Shown here in pieces: positions 1 to 41,071 of a stretch of DNA of 41,071 nt. The stretch comes from Kagunavirus LF7074P1. The translations under genes and the position numbers were made by a program. Each line of letters begins with the position of its first letter. Positions within the stretch are counted from its first letter, which is position 1. The DNA lies in the sequence record OZ035758.1; one strand, 5' to 3'. The notes beneath the pieces are model-generated. The model searched no databases. It saw only the letters and a program-made list of their open reading frames with translations, and was not told the DNA's origin.

Positions 1-33
1 GTAACAACGAATATGGGCGAGGTAGAGGAATGA
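1..33 (+). CDS. Probable C-terminal 11 codons of the terminase small subunit ORF that runs off the 3' end of the window (circular permutation)
   Basis: Frame of the open ORF ending at 41071 continues exactly at nt 1 and reaches TGA at 31-33, overlapping TerL ATG at 30-32 (ATGA coupling). Confidence 0.35.
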   Translation, partial: VTTNMGEVEE

Positions 34-1280
34 GTATTCAGCTATCCGCCCCTCAGGCACTGTTCCTGAATTGTGACAATAAATACAAGGCCTACGTCGG
101 TGGCTTCGGCAGCGGCAAGACGTTTGTCGGCTGTCTTGACCTGCTTACATTTATGCTCAAGCACCCCGGTACGCGCCTCGGATACTTCGGCCCGACATAT
201 CCGGCTATCCGTGACATCTTCTACCCGACATTTGAGGAAGCCGCTAACCTGCTCGGCCTCGATGTGCTGGTTAAATCTGGCGACAAAGAAGTCGTGGTTA
301 CTCGCGGTAAGACGGTGCTCGGTACAGTTATCTGCCGTTCTATGGATAACCCAGGCTCGATAGTCGGCTTCAAAATCGCTGCTGCGGTCGTGGATGAGCT
401 TGATGTATTGAGCCGTGAGAAAGCTGAGCTGGCGTGGAACAAAATAGTCGCCCGTATGCGTCTGGTTATCCCCGGCGTAACTAACCACATCTCTGTCACC
501 ACGACACCGGAAGGGTTCAAGTTCGTCTACGCCAAGTTCAAAGAGAACCCGACGCCGAGTTACTCGATGGTGCAGGCTTCTACACACGAGAACGCGCGAT
601 TCCTGCCGCCTGACTACATTAGCTCACTGACCGAGACTTACCCCGCGCAACTGATTAACGCGTACCTGAACGGTGAGTTCGTTAACCTGACATCCGGCAG
701 CGTGTATTATGCGTATGACCGTCGCAAGCACCGCAGCAAAGAGACAATTCAACCGGGCGATACACTGTACATCGGGCAGGACTTCAACGTTACGAAGAAC
801 GCCAGCGCCGTGTATGTGCAACGTAAAGACGGCTGGCACGCGGTGGCAGAACTGAAAGGTCTGTTTGATACGCCGGACACCGTGCGTGTAATTACTGAGA
901 AGTGGAAGTCGCAGGGCCACCGCATAGTCGTTTACCCGGACGCCAGCGGCAAGAACCGCAAGACCAACTCGGCGTCAATCTCAGATATTGCGTTACTCCA
1001 GCAGGCCGGTTTCGATGTTCGCGCTAAATCCGCCAACCCTCCGGTTAAAGACCGTGTTTTAGCCGTGAATACTGCACTGGAAAAAGGTAAGCTGTGGGTT
1101 AATGACCACTTATGCCCCGAGATAGCGAAGACGCTGGAGCAGCAGGCATACGATGATAACGGAGAGCCAGCTAAAGACGGCATCATTGACCATATGGCGG
1201 ATGCTCTCGGCTATCCTGTAGTTTACGAGATGCCGGTGGCTAAACCAGTAATCAACATCCCGGTGACTTTCGCACTTTAA
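30..1280 (+). CDS. terL: Terminase large subunit
   Basis: 416-aa ORF; N-terminal Walker A GGFGSGKT; RBS gaggtagagga upstream of ATG; immediately followed by portal-like ORF. Confidence 0.88.
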   Translation: MSIQLSAPQALFLNCDNKYKAYVGGFGSGKTFVGCLDLLTFMLKHPGTRLGYFGPTYPAIRDIFYPTFEEAANLLGLDVLVKSGDKEVVVTRGKTVLGTVICRSMDNPGSIVGFKIAAAVVDELDVLSREKAELAWNKIVARMRLVIPGVTNHISVTTTPEGFKFVYAKFKENPTPSYSMVQASTHENARFLPPDYISSLTETYPAQLINAYLNGEFVNLTSGSVYYAYDRRKHRSKETIQPGDTLYIGQDFNVTKNASAVYVQRKDGWHAVAELKGLFDTPDTVRVITEKWKSQGHRIVVYPDASGKNRKTNSASISDIALLQQAGFDVRAKSANPPVKDRVLAVNTALEKGKLWVNDHLCPEIAKTLEQQAYDDNGEPAKDGIIDHMADALGYPVVYEMPVAKPVINIPVTFAL

Positions 1281-1291
1281 GAGGACAACAA

Positions 1292-2785
1292 ATGGTTTCC
1301 GCAAACATTAACGCAGGGCAAGGGCAGAACGTTAAAACCCGCCACCGCCAGTACGAAGAGTATTTCCCTAAGTGGCAGAAGGTGCGACATGCGCTTTCTG
1401 GCGACCTGACATCGTATCTACGTGACGTCAGTAAGAACGAGCCGGACCCGGTTTACGGTCTCCAGCGTCAGGCTGAATACGAAGCGGGGGCAATTTGCTA
1501 CAACTTCACCAAGCGAACGCTTTCAGGCATGGTCGGCAGCGTAATGCGCAAAGACCCCGAGATGATTATTCCGTCTCAGATGGAATACCTGACCACTAAC
1601 TGTGACGGGTCGGGCGTTGGCCTGTGGCAGCACGCACAGGATACTCTGTATGAGATTGATGCTGTTGGTCGCGGTGGTTTGCTGGTTGACGCCCCCGCGG
1701 TAGAAGTAGCTACCATGGCAGAGCAAAACGAGGGTTTACTAAACCCAACAATCGCTTTCTACACCGCAGAGAATATCATCAACTGGCGTCTCCAGCGCGT
1801 CGGGTCTGTTAATCGTGTGGTTATGGTTGTATTGCGTGAGGAATACGAGTACACCGATGGCGCGAATGAGTTCCGCCCCAACTACGGCGAGCAATACCGA
1901 GTCCTTGATATTTTCGAAGGCCAGTATCGCCAGCGTCTGTACCGCTTTAACCAGAAAGGTGCACTGACGGAAGGTGGCTATATCGAAATATTCCCGAAAC
2001 TCGGTAATATTCCGGTCGGGGTGATTCCGTTCACGTTCATCGGCGCGGGAAATAACGACTCAACCCCTGACGATGCACCTTTGCTGCCGTTGGCTGAACT
2101 TAATATCGGGCACTACCGCAACAGCGCGGACAATGAGGAGTCCAGCTTCGTCGTAGGCCAGCCTACTCTGTTCATCGCCCCCGGTGAGAACATGAGCATG
2201 GGACAATGGAAAGAAGCCAACCCTCGCGGAGTGCGTATGGGGTCACGTTCTGGCCATAACATCGGTTACGGCGGCAATGCGTTTCTGGTCCAGGCCGGTG
2301 AGAACAACCTAGCCAAGCAGAACATGTTGGATAAAGAGAACCAGGCAATCCAGATTGGTGCACAGCTTATTACCCCGACGCAGCAAATCACCGCGGAATC
2401 GGCACGCCTGCAACGCGGCGCTGATACGTCCGTTATGGCAACAATCGCACGTAACGTAAGCATGGCGTATACCGATGCGTTGCGCTGGGTCGCGGGTATG
2501 CTTGGGCTTAGCGACAGCACTGAAATTGAGTTCAAACTGAACATGGAGTTCTTCCTGCAACCAATGACCGCTCAGGACCGCGCGCAGTGGATGGCGGATA
2601 TTAACGCGGGCCTGTTACCGGCTACCGCTTACTATGCTGCGTTGCGTAAGGCGGGGGTAACTGACTGGACAGACGAGGACATTAAGAACGCTATCGAGGA
2701 TGCGCCTCTGCCATTAGGTGCTGTTGCTCAGGTGGCTGGGGAGATTCCGCAGTCGGCGCAGCAAAAAGACCCCACCCAGCAGTAA
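1292..2785 (+). CDS. Portal protein
   Basis: 497-aa ORF directly downstream of TerL, RBS gagga 6 nt upstream; size and position typical of portal; followed by hairpin terminator. Confidence 0.75.
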   Translation: MVSANINAGQGQNVKTRHRQYEEYFPKWQKVRHALSGDLTSYLRDVSKNEPDPVYGLQRQAEYEAGAICYNFTKRTLSGMVGSVMRKDPEMIIPSQMEYLTTNCDGSGVGLWQHAQDTLYEIDAVGRGGLLVDAPAVEVATMAEQNEGLLNPTIAFYTAENIINWRLQRVGSVNRVVMVVLREEYEYTDGANEFRPNYGEQYRVLDIFEGQYRQRLYRFNQKGALTEGGYIEIFPKLGNIPVGVIPFTFIGAGNNDSTPDDAPLLPLAELNIGHYRNSADNEESSFVVGQPTLFIAPGENMSMGQWKEANPRGVRMGSRSGHNIGYGGNAFLVQAGENNLAKQNMLDKENQAIQIGAQLITPTQQITAESARLQRGADTSVMATIARNVSMAYTDALRWVAGMLGLSDSTEIEFKLNMEFFLQPMTAQDRAQWMADINAGLLPATAYYAALRKAGVTDWTDEDIKNAIEDAPLPLGAVAQVAGEIPQSAQQKDPTQQ

Positions 2786-11152: not shown

Positions 11153-11637
11153 TACTTATCACTCCCGTGCGATTTTAAGTGTGTAGAGTTCCCGTTACAG
11201 TCGTATTCAGTAACCGCGTGAGTGGTTATACCGAGGCCACGGAAATGCTTTATTACCGCTGGCGAGTCGTCGAATGCGCACAAGATTCTTTCCAGCCCGA
11301 TAGTACGTAGCACCTCTTCCTTAATTACGATGTCTTTTCTGTTGTCGTGTTTGCTGCGCATGATTAACTGATAAAATTCGACGCGGTGGCGCTGCAACCA
11401 CATTCTGGTTTCTTTTTCCGCGTCATCACTACGGCCTGTTAAGATAATAACGGCATAGCGACGATTAAGGGCGTTACACAGTTCGATGTTATCTTTAATG
11501 GGTGCATCGTCTTTGCACGCCATGTTAAATGGTTTCCACGCCCAGGTTTCGCCGTAGTTATCTTTCGGCAGCAGGTGTAAACGATGAGCACCATCTGCCA
11601 ATGTCCCGTCTAAATCGAAAATCACAATATCTTTCAT
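11152..11637 (-). CDS. HAD-family phosphatase resembling the 3'-phosphatase domain of T4 polynucleotide kinase
   Basis: 161 aa; VIFDLDGTLA, ILTGR, DNRKDIVIKEE, AFDDSP blocks line up with the T4 Pnk C-terminal domain as recalled from memory. Confidence 0.65.
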   Translation of the reverse strand: MKDIVIFDLDGTLADGAHRLHLLPKDNYGETWAWKPFNMACKDDAPIKDNIELCNALNRRYAVIILTGRSDDAEKETRMWLQRHRVEFYQLIMRSKHDNRKDIVIKEEVLRTIGLERILCAFDDSPAVIKHFRGLGITTHAVTEYDCNGNSTHLKSHGSDK

Positions 11638-20147: not shown

Positions 20148-23102
20148 ATGTCAAGCGGATGCGGTGACGTTCTAAGCCTGGCGGATTTGCAAACCGCCAA
20201 GAAGCACCAGATTTTCGAAGCCGAAGTTATCACCGGTAAATCCGGTGGTGTTGCTGGTGGCGCTGATATCGATTACGCGACAAATCAGGTTACCGGGCAG
20301 ACACAGAAGACGTTACCTGCCGTGTTGCGTGATGCTGGTTTTAAACTGGCAGATTTTGATTTCACGTCAGGCGGTACACTATCCGCTAACGACCGAAACA
20401 CCGCAGTTTTGTGGCCGTCGTCCTCTGGCGGTGACGGGGATTGGTACTATTGGTTGGGTGCTCTACCAAAAATTATCCCAGCGTCATCTTCTCCGCAGTC
20501 CACCGGTGGCGTGGCAGATGGGGCGTGGCAGCCTGTCGGGTCGGTCATACTGCGGCAGCAAATATCAGATGTAAACGGTGCAATTCTGTACCCAGATTTA
20601 CATGTGGCGCGATGGAAGGACGAATACGACCCGCGCGCATGGGGCGCCGTGGGCGACGGCGTAACTGATGATACTCAATCTATTTTTAATGTATTAGCAG
20701 CTTCCCCCAACAATTGGATTATAGACGGCAGGGGTTTGACTTATAAAGTTTCCCAATTACCTGACATTAGTAAATTTAATAATGCTGCATTCGTTTACGA
20801 GCGCGTAGCCGGGCAACCGCTTACTTATGTAGCTGATGGCTTCTTTAACGGCTCACTAACTAAGGTGACGGATACCCCGTTCTACAACGCATGGACGCAG
20901 GATAAAACTTTCGTCTACGACCATGTTATTTACGCCCCGTTTATGGCGGGCGAACGACATGGTGTTAAAAACTTACATGTAGCTTGGGTTCGCTCTGGAG
21001 ACGACGGGCAGACTTGGTCAATGCCTGAGTGGTTGACTCCAATCCATGCTGACTATAATGCTAGTGTTTCTACGGACAGAGTTAACTACCACTGCATGAG
21101 CATGGGTACGTGCGGCAACCGATTATATGCAGTTATAGAAACTCGCTACTTATCTAATATGCGGATGAAGAAGGCAGAACTTTGGTCACGCCCAATGCCG
21201 TATTTTAGACACCCAACCGGCGGAATAACTATTAGTTCTGGCTCCACTACTGCTACCATTGTCATAGAAAATCATGGCCTAAAAGCAGGAGATGCGGTTA
21301 ACTTCTCTAATACATCGGCAACTGGCGTATCGGGTAATATGACGGTTTCGTCTATAATTAACCGAAATACGTTCACTGTTACGCTCTCAAGCCCGGCGAG
21401 TTCCACCATAAACAATGCGGGTGTTACCTGGAACTTCGCAACGCGATTCTGGGACAGCCCGTGGGAAATTACCGAATTGCCTGAGGTAGCATACTCCACT
21501 AATGCTGATTTGTGTGTCACGGAGACACATAGTTTTGCGGTTATAGATGATGTTAACTACACTATCGCTGTCGGCTATCACAACGGCGATGTGTCCCCTA
21601 GGCGTCTCGGTGTCTTGTATTTTAGTAACGTGTATGACAATCCTGGCGTATTCGTTCGTCGCACTGTCGCTCAGGCATACGCTGATAACGCTTCTGAGCC
21701 GTGCGTGAAAAGTTATGGTGGTGTGTTATACCTTACCACACGCGGCACATTACCTACTTCCCCTGGCTCTACACTGGCGATGAGCGCCGATTCTGGGCAA
21801 AACTGGAGCTACTTGCGATTTCCGAACAATGTACATCACTCCAATCTTCCGTTCGCTAAAGTAGGTGACTATCTCTACATCTTTGGTACAGAACGTGCCT
21901 TTGGTGAGTGGGAAGGTGGCGAGCAGGACAGCCGCTATGAAGGTTCGTATCCGAGGACCTTTATGTGCAAAGTTAATGTGTCGTCCTGGCCTTCATCTTT
22001 AGATGATGTTCAGTGGTTTAATATTACCGACCAAATATACCAGGGTCATATCGTTAACTCTGCTGTCGGCGTCGGCTCGGTCTGTGTTAAAGATGGCTGG
22101 TTGTACTATATCTTTGGTGGGGAAGACTTCTTCTCTCCCTGGAGCATAGGGGATAACAGTGCGAAGTTATGGTACAAACATGATGGGCATCCGGCTGACT
22201 TATATAGCTACCGGATAAAGATTGAAGACCACCCGTACGTATCACGTGATTTCAAATACGGAGCAACTCCTAACCGTACAATACCTGTCGCCATGGGGGT
22301 AGATGGTGTACGCCATGTAGAAGCACCTTTAACGTTTGACAATGATGTAAGCGTGTACTCCCTGCATGTAACGGGGCTGGAATACGATGGTACACAACAG
22401 TCTGCCGTGCGCGCACGGTTTGATGGTGATTACGGGCTGATTTCAAAAACAGTCCCCACTAAAACCCCATCGGGTCAAAGACTGATAGTTAGCGGTGGTG
22501 ATGGTGCATCCAGTTCCGATGGTGCGTTGCTGCAACTGTACGGGGCAAACCATGCAACGCCTAACAGGGCTATTATGTATGCGTCAGGAGGCTTCTACTC
22601 ATACAACAATTTTCTTCCTTACTTAGACTCGCAAGTGTCTTTAGGTTCGGCAGGTAATAGGTGGACTACGGTGTACGCGGCCACCGGTACGATAAACACG
22701 TCTGATGGTACACTTAAGACGGACAAAGAGGAAATTGAGGGACAACTCCTTACCGCATGGGAGGATATACATGTAATATCTTTTAAGTGGCTTGAAAGCC
22801 TAGCAATCAAGGGTGACACTGCAAGGATACACTTCGGTGTGATAGCCCAAGATGTGCGAGACATCTTGGTCAACCATGGGCTTATGGAGAAAGATTCTAC
22901 CGATTGTAAATATGCTTTCTTGTGCTACGACTCAATTGAAGCTGCGTATGATATTGATGAAGATGGCCAGACTGTACAAGTATCCCCTCCCGGCGGCAGA
23001 TGGGGGGTTAGGGCGGACCAGATGTTCTTCATAGAGATTGCCTATCAGCGTAAGAAGATGCGCGAGTTCGAGAAGAGGCTGGCAGCACTAGAAGATAAAT
23101 AA
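20148..23102 (+). CDS. Tailspike / receptor-binding protein with sialidase-type Asp-boxes and C-terminal intramolecular chaperone (peptidase S74-like) domain
   Basis: 984 aa; Asp-box SGDDGQTW (nt 20994-21017) and SADSGQNW (nt 21783-21806); pectate-lyase-like WGAVGDGVTDDTQS; C-terminal SDGTLK...HFGVIAQDV typical of endosialidase-type chaperone domains. Confidence 0.75.
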   Translation: MSSGCGDVLSLADLQTAKKHQIFEAEVITGKSGGVAGGADIDYATNQVTGQTQKTLPAVLRDAGFKLADFDFTSGGTLSANDRNTAVLWPSSSGGDGDWYYWLGALPKIIPASSSPQSTGGVADGAWQPVGSVILRQQISDVNGAILYPDLHVARWKDEYDPRAWGAVGDGVTDDTQSIFNVLAASPNNWIIDGRGLTYKVSQLPDISKFNNAAFVYERVAGQPLTYVADGFFNGSLTKVTDTPFYNAWTQDKTFVYDHVIYAPFMAGERHGVKNLHVAWVRSGDDGQTWSMPEWLTPIHADYNASVSTDRVNYHCMSMGTCGNRLYAVIETRYLSNMRMKKAELWSRPMPYFRHPTGGITISSGSTTATIVIENHGLKAGDAVNFSNTSATGVSGNMTVSSIINRNTFTVTLSSPASSTINNAGVTWNFATRFWDSPWEITELPEVAYSTNADLCVTETHSFAVIDDVNYTIAVGYHNGDVSPRRLGVLYFSNVYDNPGVFVRRTVAQAYADNASEPCVKSYGGVLYLTTRGTLPTSPGSTLAMSADSGQNWSYLRFPNNVHHSNLPFAKVGDYLYIFGTERAFGEWEGGEQDSRYEGSYPRTFMCKVNVSSWPSSLDDVQWFNITDQIYQGHIVNSAVGVGSVCVKDGWLYYIFGGEDFFSPWSIGDNSAKLWYKHDGHPADLYSYRIKIEDHPYVSRDFKYGATPNRTIPVAMGVDGVRHVEAPLTFDNDVSVYSLHVTGLEYDGTQQSAVRARFDGDYGLISKTVPTKTPSGQRLIVSGGDGASSSDGALLQLYGANHATPNRAIMYASGGFYSYNNFLPYLDSQVSLGSAGNRWTTVYAATGTINTSDGTLKTDKEEIEGQLLTAWEDIHVISFKWLESLAIKGDTARIHFGVIAQDVRDILVNHGLMEKDSTDCKYAFLCYDSIEAAYDIDEDGQTVQVSPPGGRWGVRADQMFFIEIAYQRKKMREFEKRLAALEDK

Positions 23103-35284: not shown

Positions 35285-35469
35285 TGGGAGAATTAATTTA
35301 CGACGTATACGTCGACGGGGTCATAACAGAGACGACAAGTAATAAAGATTACGCAATAAAGCGGTATGTGTATTATGCCGCAGTGGTAGGAAGGATGGTA
35401 GAAGTGCGGGAGCAAACGGCATCGAATCATGATGCTCGTGCCGACGACTCTGAGGGAGGTTGCCGTTAA
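35284..35469 (+). CDS. Hypothetical protein
   Basis: ATG overlapping upstream TGA; RBS aagggg. Confidence 0.4.
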   Translation: MGELIYDVYVDGVITETTSNKDYAIKRYVYYAAVVGRMVEVREQTASNHDARADDSEGGCR

Positions 35470-35624
35470 TGCGAATCCGTATAACTGACCGCAGGCTTAT
35501 AGATTTCGGTATCTCGGTAGGTGATGTTTTTCTGGCGTTCAGCAGCAACCATTATGGTTTTATGATTGAGTACAAAGGGTCGTTATTGTTCGTGTATCGG
35601 GATGAATGTGAGGTTCTGGTATGA
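35469..35624 (+). CDS. Small hypothetical protein (51 aa), not in ORF track
   Basis: TAATG coupling to the upstream gene. Confidence 0.3.
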   Translation: MRIRITDRRLIDFGISVGDVFLAFSSNHYGFMIEYKGSLLFVYRDECEVLV

Positions 35625-37986: not shown

Positions 37987-38251
37987 GTTATTCTGGTTCG
38001 GCGGTATGCTGGCAATCGGCGGCACATCGCTGTTTAATGTATACCATCCGAGCGTGGATGACGGGCTATTTGGTCGGGTGCTCTATATCCTGACTGCTAT
38101 CGTCTGCGCTGCCGGATGTATCCACCTGTTACAGGGCAGCATGTCGCCGACGCTGCCTGAGACATTAATCACATTAGTTGCGCTGCGTCAGATTCGTCAG
38201 GCGTGGCTGTCATACGGAGGACATAAGCGTGTCTCGAAACATTTCAGATAA
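37979..38251 (+). CDS. Second small membrane protein (two TM segments); holin/antiholin-like
   Basis: 90 aa from ATG 37979 overlapping the upstream gene end; hydrophobic FWFGGMLAIGGTSLF and VLYILTAIVCAAGCIHLL. Confidence 0.45.
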   Translation: MNELFWFGGMLAIGGTSLFNVYHPSVDDGLFGRVLYILTAIVCAAGCIHLLQGSMSPTLPETLITLVALRQIRQAWLSYGGHKRVSKHFR

Positions 38252-38717
38252 TGGATTGCATTTTACCGCCGCGTTTGAGGGGTTCCGCGGAACTGCGTAT
38301 CGTGCTACGCCATCGGAAAAATACTTAACTATAGGCTACGGTCATTACGGGCCGGACGTGGCCCCAGGCAAGACCATCACGCCAGGGCAAGGCCTCCTGT
38401 TACTGAACCGTGATATGGCTAAGGCCGTAGCTGCGGTTGACGCAGCGGCGCACCATTCGCTAACACAGGCGCAGTTTGATGCAGTGTGCGACCTGGTCTA
38501 TAACGCGGGGGCCGGCGTTATTTCGGCTACTACCGGTACAGGTAAGGCACTGCGCTCCGGTGATATCGCGACGTTACGGGCTAAACTGGCGCTGTTCATC
38601 AACCAGAACGGCAAACCGTTACTGGGCCTTCGCCGCCGTACCGCCGGTCGCCTGGCGCTGTTTGACGGTAAACCGTGGCAAGAGGCGGAGGCTATCGGGC
38701 GCGCGGTGAAAGGTTGA
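38229..38717 (+). CDS. Endolysin, glycoside hydrolase family 24 (lambdoid/P22 gp19-type lysozyme)
   Basis: GTG start 8 nt after GGAGG; motifs EGFRGTAY...TIGYGH...QFDAVCDLVYNAG...LLGLRRRTAGRLALF parallel P22-type lysozymes; no N-terminal signal-arrest-release segment. Confidence 0.8.
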   Translation: MSRNISDNGLHFTAAFEGFRGTAYRATPSEKYLTIGYGHYGPDVAPGKTITPGQGLLLLNRDMAKAVAAVDAAAHHSLTQAQFDAVCDLVYNAGAGVISATTGTGKALRSGDIATLRAKLALFINQNGKPLLGLRRRTAGRLALFDGKPWQEAEAIGRAVKG

Positions 38718-38782
38718 CACCCAAGACTAATCCGATGATACTTAAATCACCTCCTGTTCCATCCCTCTGCTCTCCAGTTTTA

Positions 38783-38813
38783 TCCCGGCCCTGACCCAGC
38801 CGGGATTTTTTTT
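38783..38813 (+). terminator. Strong rho-independent terminator after lysis cassette
   Basis: tcccggc-(9-nt loop)-gccggga stem followed by 8 T. Confidence 0.8.
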
Positions 38814-38835
38814 ATCTATTTTCTGCAATGACTAG

Positions 38836-38864
38836 TTGACTATTATCCTAGACCCTACTATATT
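38836..38864 (+). promoter_or_regulatory. Sigma70-like promoter P8 (TTGACT-17-TATATT)
   Basis: TTGACTattatcctagaccctacTATATT; leader contains the conserved ACGAGA before the RBS. Confidence 0.55.
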
Positions 38865-38897
38865 TACTTCATCGACAACGAGAACGGAGTAGAGAAG

Positions 38898-39047
38898 ATG
38901 AAAATCACAGATACCGAAGCATTCGAAGACGCGCAACTGATGGCGCGCATTGCCGTTAGTCACCGGGGTGGGAGCATTCCCGCGGACTCGTTCTGGTTCG
39001 CTGCGATGCAGACACTGAAAGCAGCTTATGCAGGAGAGAAGAAATGA
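38898..39047 (+). CDS. Small hypothetical protein (49 aa), not in ORF track
   Basis: RBS ggag; ATGA-coupled to next ORF. Confidence 0.3.
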   Translation: MKITDTEAFEDAQLMARIAVSHRGGSIPADSFWFAAMQTLKAAYAGEKK

Positions 39048-39238
39048 AAAATATAGTCCCAGAAGTCGGTAAAGGTTGCTTCGTTGTTTCTTATTTCGAT
39101 GGGGACGAGTACGTTGATTGCGGCCAGTTTCATCAATCTGGTGATGCTGGTGCTTACGCCGCGAAGTTAGTAGGTACTACGCCACTGGAAGACATTCGTA
39201 TTGTATTCAATATGGAACTTGCAGGAGATAAGAAATGA
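39044..39238 (+). CDS. Hypothetical protein
   Basis: 64-aa ORF, coupled. Confidence 0.4.
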   Translation: MKNIVPEVGKGCFVVSYFDGDEYVDCGQFHQSGDAGAYAAKLVGTTPLEDIRIVFNMELAGDKK

Positions 39239-39393
39239 GCGAACACGGTGAAGTAAGCCAACCATTACGAGTAGGCCGTAAAGTCAGTCACACCCCGTTC
39301 CCGACACGCGAGGAACTGATGAAACGTAATAGTTTCCCGGGGCCGGACAAGAACAAGTATCTCAATCGCATGTGGGGAGAGCGTAAAGAATGA
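39235..39393 (+). CDS. Small hypothetical protein (52 aa), not in ORF track
   Basis: ATGA coupling on both sides. Confidence 0.3.
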   Translation: MSEHGEVSQPLRVGRKVSHTPFPTREELMKRNSFPGPDKNKYLNRMWGERKE

Positions 39394-39563
39394 CTAACAA
39401 CGAATACGAGAAACTTAGCGTCGAATCTGCGACCGGTGAATCAGAAATAGCATGGATTGACGCCCACATTGAGCACTACTTACGGCAAGTAGACGCCCTT
39501 ATGGAACGCCGCCGCGAGCTGATTAACCGCTTCAACCTGAACAAATGTGACACCAATGCCTAA
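39390..39563 (+). CDS. Small hypothetical protein (57 aa), not in ORF track
   Basis: ATGA coupling. Confidence 0.3.
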   Translation: MTNNEYEKLSVESATGESEIAWIDAHIEHYLRQVDALMERRRELINRFNLNKCDTNA

Positions 39564-39759
39564 AATCACAATCGCATCACTCGAGCGCCGTATTCTGGTG
39601 CTTGAGTCAGAGAAACAGACGTTAGGCGGACAACTGTCAATTAACGGTGAGTTTCAGCTGGAGGCGTTTAAGTTGTTGCTCGGGAAATTGAAGGAAGAAG
39701 AGCAGAAGCTACTACTCTCCCCTGAGTTCGATTACGGTGTTGATGATGAAAGCGCCTGA
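39556..39759 (+). CDS. Hypothetical coiled-coil protein
   Basis: ORF in track (39547 GTG or 39556 ATG start). Confidence 0.4.
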   Translation: MPKITIASLERRILVLESEKQTLGGQLSINGEFQLEAFKLLLGKLKEEEQKLLLSPEFDYGVDDESA

Positions 39760-39928
39760 ACCCGTAGTTATCGATGGCGTCCTGTGGAAACCATACTCGG
39801 TTAACCACATCGACGCCGACGGGAAGAAGTTCAGCTTCTACATTTTTGCAATTAGCCGTGAGCACGCCGCTTGTGTGGTTGATGATATACGAGAAACAGC
39901 GTGGCTTGGTGATGAGATAGTGGGGTGA
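39737..39928 (+). CDS. Hypothetical protein
   Basis: ORF in track; start TTG 39737 or ATG 39740/39743. Confidence 0.4.
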   Translation: MLMMKAPEPVVIDGVLWKPYSVNHIDADGKKFSFYIFAISREHAACVVDDIRETAWLGDEIVG

Positions 39929-39932
39929 GAGT

Positions 39933-40103
39933 ATGTTCAGTGACATCAACGCAGCAATCGAAGAAGCAATCTGGCGCAGATACAACGGCGAGCAACAACG
40001 GCACTTCTGCCTGGTGCAACGTGGAAACATGATTGCCGTAGTGCAGGACCGCGATAACAAATATCCGAATGCGATGTGGACAACGAGGAATTTTGTAGGA
40101 TGA
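39933..40103 (+). CDS. Small hypothetical protein (56 aa), not in ORF track
   Basis: ATG 39933; stop overlaps next ATG (ATGA). Confidence 0.3.
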   Translation: MFSDINAAIEEAIWRRYNGEQQRHFCLVQRGNMIAVVQDRDNKYPNAMWTTRNFVG

Positions 40104-40336
40104 TTACCAGCATTCCGAACCTGATTAAAGAATACGGCACGATGGCGGAGACATGCCGACAAACCGGCATCAACGAAATGACGATTGCCAAGTACCGCAA
40201 CGACGTGAACTGCGAGCGCCACGTAATTTATAACAACCGTCTTATGACGCACGTTAAGACAAGCCCGGTGTTATTCACGCGCCGTGGTATCACTAAAACT
40301 GAGCAACGTATTGCTAAAGAGGAGAGCGGAGAATGA
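40100..40336 (+). CDS. Small HTH-like protein; candidate regulator
   Basis: 78 aa from ATG 40100; ETCRQTGINEMTIAKYRN helix-turn-helix-like; last substantial gene before the terS promoter region. Confidence 0.4.
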   Translation: MITSIPNLIKEYGTMAETCRQTGINEMTIAKYRNDVNCERHVIYNNRLMTHVKTSPVLFTRRGITKTEQRIAKEESGE

Positions 40337-40436
40337 GACTGCTAACCATTCCGAATGCCTGGGCTATTGCCGTAGCTAACGACCATTACGGCGGCGATGG
40401 TAAAAGAGCACCACGACATGGCCTATACAACTGATA

Positions 40437-40459
40437 CAAGCCCTCTACGGAGGGCTTTT
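40437..40459 (+). terminator. Intrinsic terminator
   Basis: agccctc-tacg-gagggct hairpin followed by tttt. Confidence 0.65.
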
Positions 40460-40482
40460 CTGTACATCCCGCCCAATCCCCT

Positions 40483-40488
40483 TATATA
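40483..40488 (+). promoter_or_regulatory. Candidate -10 element (TATAAT) of late/terS promoter lacking a clear -35
   Basis: Consensus hexamer about 70 nt upstream of terS ATG; no TTGACA-like -35 at the proper spacing. Confidence 0.35.
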
Positions 40489-40494
40489 ATCCCT

Positions 40495-40538
40495 TTAGAC
40501 GCGTAGGGCGCGTCTGATGCGCTCTGATGGTCAGACGC
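40495..40538 (+). other. Two adjacent inverted repeats in the terS leader
   Basis: AGACGCG-taggg-CGCGTCT and ATGCGCTCTGA-tgg-TCAGACGCAT, flanked by outer AATCCCC ... GGGGATT inverted repeat. Confidence 0.6.
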
Positions 40539-40555
40539 ATACGAAAGGGGATTCT

Positions 40556-41071
40556 ATGAAGCTGAAACTCAAGCAGCCATCGCCAGAGGTGGTGCAAGCT
40601 GCACATGAAGAAGCTGTTAGCGCAAACCGTCGACGTAAACGACCGCGCGGTAAACAGAGCCTTTATCAATCGTCCCGTAATTCCGCCGCGTTGTGGGACC
40701 CGGACTATTGCGACGAATTGATTCGTTTCTTCGACCGCACGTCATGGGAGTCTATGCCGACCGGTGCACACGGAGACTACAAAGCTGTCATTGCGGACAA
40801 GCCACCGTCACTGGCCCGCTTTGCATTGCACATCGGCGTCACTATCCCGATTATTAAGTTGTGGCTGCGTGAGATTCCAGCTTTTGCAGAAGCATATGAA
40901 ACAGCACAGGCGCTGGAAGAGGCATACTTCACTGAGACGGGGGCCGCGGGTATCTCCGCTACGTTTGCTGCCGCGAAGCTGGGCCTCGGTAAAGAGAAAC
41001 CAGTTGAATCTACAGAAGAAACAGCACCGACTGAGATTATTTTCAGTGTTGCAGAGCCTGTAGGTAAAATC
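40556..41071 (+). CDS. Putative terminase small subunit, truncated by window end (continues in frame at nt 1-33)
   Basis: ORF with RBS aaagggg, 172 codons without stop to the last base; basic N-terminus (RRRKRPRGK); missed by the ORF track because there is no stop inside the window. Confidence 0.5.
   Translation, partial: MKLKLKQPSPEVVQAAHEEAVSANRRRKRPRGKQSLYQSSRNSAALWDPDYCDELIRFFDRTSWESMPTGAHGDYKAVIADKPPSLARFALHIGVTIPIIKLWLREIPAFAEAYETAQALEEAYFTETGAAGISATFAAAKLGLGKEKPVESTEETAPTEIIFSVAEPVGKI

What the first reader, a model, noticed from the sequence alone, without database searches (positions are those of the whole stretch)
40556..41071. Terminase small subunit ORF split across the window ends: evidence for a complete circularly permuted genome
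An RBS-preceded ORF beginning at 40556 runs 172 codons without a stop to the very last base. Reading on from nt 1 in the same frame gives 10 more codons and a TGA at 31-33 that overlaps the TerL start codon (ATGA). This is the expected terS-terL coupling and implies the window is a full genome linearised inside terS. The ORF track misses this gene.
Basis: seen in the sequence. Interest (0 to 1): 0.45.

Follow-up and report, generated by a model that had tools for sequence, protein, structure and literature searches.

The report
Small terminase gene split by record ends
The window is a complete, circularly closed genome of a known E. coli phage (genus Kagunavirus) that was cut open inside its small terminase gene; the split gene is real but ordinary and is already annotated in many relatives.

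Summary
ATG 40556 opens a frame that runs 172 codons to base 41071. It continues at base 1 for 10 codons to TGA 31-33, which overlaps the terL ATG (30-32). The product is 182 aa, not 183.

The join is real. An independent read-derived contig (Logan ERR12949689_6, 4041 bp) is 100% identical, without gaps, to window 38189..41071+1..1158. At least 41 related phage records cross the junction in one alignment piece.

The window is collinear around the whole circle with phage ULINTec2 and 99.7% identical to Kagunavirus LF7074P1.

The protein is a small terminase (TerS):
- PHROG 3064 'terminase', E = 6.5e-70.
- 57 of 82 aligned family members (mostly remote relatives) hit Pfam GP3_package.
- hhalign to Sf6 gp1 gives 92% probability.

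The type-species record (K1G) already annotates this gene as a join across its origin, and P22's RefSeq record is also opened inside terS.

Circular permutation of the virion DNA (headful packaging) is inferred from relatives and family membership. The split itself does not show it.

One extra finding: the TerS C-terminal tail, from about nt 40981 and spanning the junction, is exchanged together with terL as a single cassette among relatives.

Verdict: correct, already known, low interest.

The parts
40556..41071 (+). terS (small terminase), codons 1-172. Contains a basic N-terminal helix, a helix/beta-hairpin/helix-turn-helix DNA-binding domain (aa ~45-106), a long helix (aa 108-130), and the start of the variable C-terminal tail.
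1..33 (+). terS codons 173-182 (VTTNMGEVEE) plus the TGA stop at 31-33.
   Evidence: Contiguous with 41071 in independent contigs and in at least 41 relatives.
30..1280 (+). terL (large terminase, 416 aa). Its ATG overlaps the terS stop (ATGA).
   Evidence: Pfam Terminase_6N 3.5e-21 and Terminase_6C 5.9e-11. PHROG terminase large subunit.
40545..40550 (+). Shine-Dalgarno-like AAGGGG, 5 nt upstream of ATG 40556.
   Evidence: Conserved in relatives.
40981..41071 (+). Start of the exchangeable terS-tail/terL cassette. Nucleotide identity to relatives that carry other TerL alleles collapses from here onward, across the window junction and into terL.
40438..40462 (+). Hairpin AAGCCCTC-TACG-GAGGGCTT followed by TTTTCTG. 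It looks like an intrinsic terminator ending the upstream gene block. Relatives carry compensatory changes in the stem.
40461..40490 (+). Sigma-70-like promoter TGTACA-18 nt-TATAAT (10 of 12 matches) upstream of terS. Nearly invariant in 39 distinct relatives.
40496..40539 (+). Two adjacent conserved hairpins in the terS leader. They contain the alternative in-frame start at 40517.
   Evidence: fold z = -3.8

Best explanation
The window is one unit length of a Kagunavirus (Guernseyvirinae) phage genome. It was assembled as a closed circle and written out starting 29 nt upstream of terL, which cuts the small terminase gene after codon 172. The joined 182-aa protein is the phage's TerS.

Proposed mechanism (inferred):
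- The helix-turn-helix domain (aa ~45-106) recognises the packaging-initiation (pac) region on concatemeric DNA.
- The long helices oligomerise the protein into a ring.
- The poorly ordered C-terminal ~40 residues, which straddle the window junction, dock and regulate TerL.

terS and terL are translationally coupled through the ATGA overlap. They head the late structural operon, which lies behind its own promoter-like sequence. Packaging most likely proceeds by the headful mechanism, giving circularly permuted, terminally redundant virion DNA. That would explain why assemblies close into a circle and why any linear record has arbitrary ends.

Shown: the ORF, the join, completeness, TerS homology and fold, the coupling, and the tail/TerL co-inheritance. 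Inferred: pac recognition, ring formation, TerL docking by the tail, and headful packaging.
For: ORF and join.

Junction contiguous: the Logan contig is 100% identical across it, at least 41 related records cross it in one alignment piece and annotate 'terminase small subunit | terminase large subunit' there, and ULINTec2 positions 11537/11535 flank it.

Identity of the phage: 99.7% to Kagunavirus LF7074P1 with the same start and end points.

TerS identity:
- phrog_3064, E = 6.5e-70.
- 507 remote relatives. In an 82-sequence alignment drawn mostly from them, 57 members hit PF16677 GP3_package and 25 hit PF20901 Sf6_terminase; 67, 46 and 24 of the 82 hit the TerS PHROGs 309, 606 and 1482.
- The only PDB sequence hits are Sf6 gene 1 protein.
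- hhalign to Sf6 gp1: 92% probability, E = 6.7e-7.
- Foldseek: P22 gp3, probability 0.99.

Coupling: the ATGA overlap is present in all 26 same-type relatives whose stop lies within the locus.

Tail and TerL: there are four tail types, each paired with one TerL allele. The breakpoint falls in the same 30-nt bin (40981-41007) for three other cassette types.

Headful packaging in relatives: Shashou is called pac by PhageTerm (PMC6776780). Jerseyvirus SeF1 has redundant, random, permuted ends (PMC9409062, Table 2). Kagunavirus fBC-Eco01 has no obvious termini (PMC9825357).
Against: The window protein has no direct Pfam hit. hhalign to a single P22 gp3 sequence is not significant. TerL has no sequence hit to solved P22 or Sf6 TerL structures. 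No read-end data exist for this phage, so permutation and terminal redundancy are untested. No pac site was located: synonymous-site conservation along terS shows no clear dip. Oligomeric state and DNA binding are untested.
Confidence: 0.9

Rival explanations
1. The virion DNA has fixed ends (cos or direct terminal repeats) somewhere else in the genome. Under this reading the circular closure and the split gene only reflect an arbitrary rotation of a collapsed assembly, not circular permutation.
For: A split gene cannot by itself distinguish permuted genomes from rotated records. The fBC-Eco01 paper describes terminase action in terms of a cos site, but only as generic text.
Against: PhageTerm on relatives gave pac (Shashou), 'redundant/random/permuted' (SeF1) or no termini (fBC-Eco01). 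TerS is related to the P22 and Sf6 pac-type small terminases. The window ends carry no terminal repeat.
Confidence: 0.08
2. The opening point of the record is not arbitrary. It marks the pac-proximal end determined from reads, as in the P22 RefSeq record, which starts at the pac site inside gene 3.
For: NC_002371 opens inside terS at the pac site. Three sister records (OZ035752, OZ035791, OZ035734) end at the homologous base. The start lies 29 nt before terL and does not coincide with a gene boundary.
Against: Rotating sister genomes to match one another would give the same pattern. Nothing conserved or repeated marks the site. No paper describing these records was found.
Confidence: 0.12
3. 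The real start codon is the upstream in-frame ATG at 40517, giving a 195-aa TerS.
For: Gene callers chose this start for many cluster members, including the exact protein P0171 and K1G ADA82295.1. The frame is open in all relatives.
Against: There is no Shine-Dalgarno sequence in front of it, and it lies at the junction of two conserved leader hairpins. In relatives the codon alternates between ATG and GTG. The 13-codon extension varies at first and second codon positions while its hairpin part is invariant even at third positions, which indicates nucleotide-level rather than coding constraint. The most divergent homologues start at MKLKL/MALR. ULINTec2 annotates the short form.
Confidence: 0.15

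Closest known systems
Escherichia phage K1G ORF49 / terminase small subunit (ADA82295.1, YP_009168781.1), type species of Kagunavirus
   Same: It belongs to the same 90%-identity protein cluster. The gene is likewise annotated as a join across the origin of a circular record (43004..43587,1..4), directly before terL.
   Different: The K1G record opens at the terL ATG, whereas this window opens 29 nt earlier. K1G uses the longer 195-aa start.
Shigella phage Sf6 gp1 (small terminase; PDB 3HEF, 4DYC)
   Different: Identity is about 14-16%. The window protein has an extra basic N-terminal helix (aa 10-27) and a beta-hairpin insertion (aa 64-79). There is no detectable similarity in the C-terminal part. 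TerL is of a different lineage.
Salmonella phage P22 gp3 (small terminase; PDB 3P9A; Pfam PF16677 GP3_package)
   Different: The window protein itself does not reach the Pfam threshold. hhalign against the single gp3 sequence is not significant. In P22, terS and terL overlap by 23 nt (terL 203.., terS ..225) rather than by ATGA.

Membership tests
Phage small terminase (TerS), P22 gp3 / Sf6 gp1-like (PF16677, PF20901; PHROGs 3064/309/606) | Significant match of the protein itself to a curated family profile | tested here: inconclusive
   Pfam gave no hit at E<=1. PHROG 3064 'terminase' hit at 6.5e-70 and phrog_606 'terminase small subunit' at 0.0047.
Phage small terminase (TerS), P22 gp3 / Sf6 gp1-like (PF16677, PF20901; PHROGs 3064/309/606) | Profile-level (transitive) homology to established TerS families | tested here: met
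   Of the 82 members of alignment A2, 57 hit GP3_package and 25 hit Sf6_terminase; 67, 46 and 24 hit the TerS PHROGs 309, 606 and 1482. hhalign to Sf6 gp1 gives 92% probability, E = 6.7e-7.
Phage small terminase (TerS), P22 gp3 / Sf6 gp1-like (PF16677, PF20901; PHROGs 3064/309/606) | Fold: N-terminal helix-turn-helix DNA-binding domain followed by long oligomerisation helices | tested here: met
Phage small terminase (TerS), P22 gp3 / Sf6 gp1-like (PF16677, PF20901; PHROGs 3064/309/606) | Gene lies immediately upstream of terL, on the same strand, at the head of the morphogenesis operon | tested here: met
   ATGA overlap with terL, followed by portal and head genes as in ULINTec2.
Phage small terminase (TerS), P22 gp3 / Sf6 gp1-like (PF16677, PF20901; PHROGs 3064/309/606) | Forms a ring oligomer (8-11 subunits) | not testable with these tools
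   Only a monomer could be modelled.
Phage small terminase (TerS), P22 gp3 / Sf6 gp1-like (PF16677, PF20901; PHROGs 3064/309/606) | Binds the pac region of its own DNA and regulates TerL ATPase and nuclease activity | not testable with these tools
   The only support is indirect: the C-terminal tail is co-inherited with the TerL allele in 47 of 47 loci where both could be scored.
Headful (pac) packaging with circularly permuted, terminally redundant DNA | No fixed physical ends; sequenced molecules cross any chosen linearisation point | tested here: inconclusive
   Independent contigs cross 41071->1, and no terminal repeat is present. Ends elsewhere cannot be excluded without read-start data.
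Headful (pac) packaging with circularly permuted, terminally redundant DNA | Read-start statistics or restriction pattern typical of pac phages | not testable with these tools
   Available only for relatives, from the literature: PMC6776780 (pac), PMC9409062 (redundant, permuted), PMC9825357 (no termini).
Genus Kagunavirus (Guernseyvirinae) | Genome-wide nucleotide similarity and synteny with genus members | tested here: met
   99.3-99.7% identity over essentially the whole length to Kagunavirus LF7074P1. 88% of the window aligns collinearly with ULINTec2 at about 84-98% identity.

The most novel reading that the evidence does not exclude
In Guernseyvirinae the last ~40 codons of terS and the whole of terL are exchanged as one recombination cassette. 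The breakpoint recurs at the same place, just after the conserved AAKLGL motif (window ~40981-40993). At least four cassette types sit on an otherwise 81-99% identical TerS core. This would be a natural domain-swap series that maps the TerL-docking segment of a small terminase. It would also show that pac recognition (core) and motor choice (tail plus TerL) evolve independently.
Probability: 0.6. Interest if true: 0.3.

Novelty: already known. Interest (0 to 1): 0.1.

Why it matters
Practically, it matters for annotation. The gene is lost by any gene caller that treats the record as linear, so the record should be treated as circular or re-opened upstream of terS. It also establishes that the window is a complete genome. 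Biologically nothing new follows: the terS-terL arrangement and the likely headful packaging are standard for this well-sampled phage group. The same split is already annotated in the K1G type record and in P22's RefSeq record. The only item with some further value is the tail-plus-terL cassette exchange, which could guide experiments on TerS-TerL specificity.

Tried and rejected
- Pfam scan of the joined protein: no hit.
- Profile of close homologues against PDB sequences: nothing. The deeper profile gave only marginal Sf6 hits, E~0.05.
- First AlphaFold run, using 21 close homologues: too poor to use, pLDDT 55. It was replaced by a run with 82 diverse sequences.
- hhalign against a single P22 gp3 sequence: not significant.
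- Search for a pac site through suppressed synonymous variation along terS in 50 distinct relatives: no convincing dip. The lowest values fall in the Arg-rich codons 19-30, where codon bias explains them.
- Rfam on 40300-41071: no family.
- Literature search for the LF7074 phages and for Kagunavirus plus headful or permuted: nothing specific.
- TerL against PDB sequences: no relative, so a TerL-based packaging classification could not be made.
- Exact look-up of the 182-aa form: not on record. The 195-aa form worked.
- Long-range pairing of AAUCCCCUU (40475-83) with the Shine-Dalgarno region, considered as an SD-sequestering switch: not pursued as a claim, because the upstream arm lies inside the promoter spacer and the Jerseyvirus-type relatives do not covary convincingly.

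Full report
**1. The observation**

Reading the two ends and joining them computationally confirms the description. ATG 40556-58 is preceded by AAGGGG (40545-50). The frame is open for 172 codons to the last base. It continues from base 1 for ten codons (VTTNMGEVEE) to TGA 31-33. That stop shares its TGA with the ATGA of a 416-aa ORF (30..1280), which hits Terminase_6N (3.5e-21) and Terminase_6C (5.9e-11).

The upstream in-frame stop is at 40496, and a second possible start (ATG 40517) exists. The ORF listing does not list the gene because it runs off the end. The two ends share no direct repeat of 5 nt or more, so the join is not an assembler overlap.

**2. Is the join real?**

Three independent lines say it is.

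- A 1119-nt query spanning the junction aligns in a single piece, over its whole length and at 86-93% identity, in at least 41 related phage records. The features under the match are annotated 'terminase small subunit | terminase large subunit'.
- Whole-genome comparison with the independently deposited phage ULINTec2 (40,815 bp) is collinear round the entire circle. Window 41070 pairs with ULINTec2 position 11537 and window 1 pairs with 11535, so no base is missing or duplicated at the junction.
- The exact protein obtained by joining the ends (in its 195-aa form from ATG 40517) is on record in Logan assemblies of public read sets. Contig ERR12949689_6 (4041 bp) is 100.000% identical, without gaps, to window 38189..41071+1..1158. 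Contig ERR12949688_63 (2385 bp) is 99.96% identical to window 40436..41071+1..1749.

**3. What the window is**

It is a Kagunavirus (Guernseyvirinae). It is 99.3-99.7% identical over essentially its whole length to Kagunavirus LF7074P1 (OZ035752.1, 41,072 bp), which has the same first and last bases. Sister records OZ035791 and OZ035734 end at the homologous base. Gene content and order match ULINTec2: terS, terL, portal, head, tail, tailspike, replication and lysis genes. The window is therefore one complete unit length of the genome.

**4. Is the protein a small terminase?**

Pfam gives nothing directly. PHROGs gives phrog_3064 'terminase' at 6.5e-70 over residues 1-167, plus a weak hit to phrog_606 'terminase small subunit'. 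Close homologues are confined to this phage group: 24 clusters, one of them named 'putative terminase small subunit'.

A profile of these close homologues, searched against 1.84 billion representative proteins, finds 507 relatives of typical TerS size. An 82-sequence alignment (A2) was built from the query, seven close homologues and 74 of those remote relatives. Among its 82 members:
- 57 hit Pfam PF16677 (GP3_package, the P22 gp3 family) and 25 hit PF20901 (Sf6_terminase).
- 67, 46 and 24 hit the TerS PHROGs 309, 606 and 1482.

The A2 profile's only PDB sequence hits are Sf6 gene 1 protein (E~0.05). hhalign against Sf6 gp1 gives 92% probability, E = 6.7e-7, over the Sf6 DNA-binding domain. 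hhalign against a single P22 gp3 sequence is not significant.

An AlphaFold model built on the 82-sequence alignment has mean pLDDT 81.8, and above 90 for residues 50-130. The model shows:
- a basic N-terminal helix (10-27);
- a helix, beta-hairpin and helix-turn-helix (50-106);
- a long helix (108-130) and a short helix (135-141);
- a low-confidence tail (145-182).

**5. Start codon and expression signals**

The 115 nt upstream of the ATG are almost invariant in 39 distinct relatives, although the sequence further upstream is mosaic. This region contains:
- a hairpin plus T-run (40438-40462) with compensatory stem changes in Jerseyvirus-type relatives;
- a promoter-like TGTACA-18-TATAAT (40461-40490);
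- two adjacent leader hairpins (40496-40539; fold z = -3.8).

The alternative start at 40517 sits between these hairpins and has no Shine-Dalgarno sequence. It alternates between ATG and GTG in relatives. The 13-codon extension changes at first and second codon positions, while its hairpin part is invariant even at third positions. The most divergent homologues begin at MKLKL/MALR. ATG 40556 is therefore the better start (about 85:15), as annotated in ULINTec2.

**6. How it most likely works**

By homology with Sf6 gp1 and P22 gp3, the helix-turn-helix domain recognises the packaging-initiation region on concatemers, the long helices build a ring, and the C-terminal tail engages TerL.

New indirect support for the last point comes from 50 IMG/VR relatives. 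The TerS core (aa 1-140) stays 81-99% identical, but the tail occurs in at least four discrete versions. Each is paired with one TerL allele:
- this window's tail with TerL at 99-100% identity, in 26 of 26 loci;
- NKTVV...VVSGER with TerL at ~55%, in 16 of 16 loci;
- NKKEEST... with TerL at ~41%, in 3 of 3 loci;
- NKKDEPE... with TerL at 49% or partial, in 2 loci.

Nucleotide identity collapses in the same 30-nt bin (40981-41007) for three different cassette types. The recombination boundary therefore lies inside terS, not at the gene border. This is what would be expected if the tail must match its TerL. Simple physical linkage contributes to the pairing, so the recurrent position of the breakpoint is the informative part. 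The window's ends cut through this tail.

**7. Circular permutation**

The split gene proves only that the record's ends are not physical ends. Headful packaging is supported indirectly by the following.
- The TerS belongs to the P22/Sf6 pac-type lineage.
- PhageTerm predicted a pac mechanism for the Guernseyvirinae-like phage Shashou (PMC6776780).
- PhageTerm reported 'redundant, random, permuted' ends for Jerseyvirus SeF1 (PMC9409062 Table 2).
- PhageTerm found no obvious termini for Kagunavirus fBC-Eco01, which is 91% identical across the junction (PMC9825357; H34).

No pac site could be located here. Whether position 1 was chosen from read data, as in P22's RefSeq record, which opens at pac inside gene 3, or was simply copied between sister genomes cannot be decided.

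**8. Comparison with what is known, and novelty**

The type species record K1G (GU196277, circular) annotates the same gene as join(43004..43587,1..4), directly before terL. Its protein is in the same 90% cluster as the window's. Dozens of GenBank relatives annotate it as terminase small subunit. Two IMG/VR isolate records likewise lose the end of terS at their contig end (L005, L022).

The finding is correct but already known. Its value is in annotation hygiene. Interest is low (0.1). The tail/terL cassette exchange is the only mildly new observation.

Noticed in passing
window 40981-41071 plus 1-1280; loci L005-L054: The C-terminal ~40 residues of TerS occur in at least 4 discrete versions among relatives. 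Each version is strictly paired with a different TerL allele (99-100%, ~55%, ~41%, ~49% identity to this TerL), while the TerS core stays 81-99% identical. The mosaic breakpoint recurs at about nt 40981-41007.
   Followed up: partly
window 40438-40555: The 115-nt region upstream of terS is nearly invariant in 39 distinct relatives, although its upstream flank is mosaic. It contains a terminator-like hairpin with compensatory changes, a promoter-like TGTACA-18-TATAAT, and two leader hairpins. The fold has z = -3.8 and there is no Rfam match. It could be a late promoter and leader, or part of the pac region.
   Followed up: partly
window 40744-40800 (TerS aa 64-82): A second small mosaic patch lies inside the TerS core. 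The predicted beta-hairpin exists in two versions (ESMPTGAHGDYKAVIA versus ELVPTSKGDERPLIQ), and nucleotide identity drops to about 50% even in otherwise close relatives.
   Followed up: no
window 35467-35621: This is the only stretch where the window fails to align with its 99.7%-identical sister record OZ035752.1. It is a short replaced or indel patch in the early-gene region.
   Followed up: no
window 1 / 41071: The record opens 29 nt upstream of the terL ATG, in the terS frame but at no gene boundary. Three sister OZ0357xx records share this point. Other Kagunavirus records open at the terL ATG (which cuts the terS stop codon), at the terS ATG or GTG, or about 50 nt upstream of it.
   Followed up: partly
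window 20148-23102: A 984-aa ORF lies at the position of ULINTec2's annotated endo-N-acetylneuraminidase tailspike, and the region aligns at about 95%. This suggests a K1-capsule-specific phage, although the sister phages' names suggest they were isolated on other E. coli strains.
   Followed up: no
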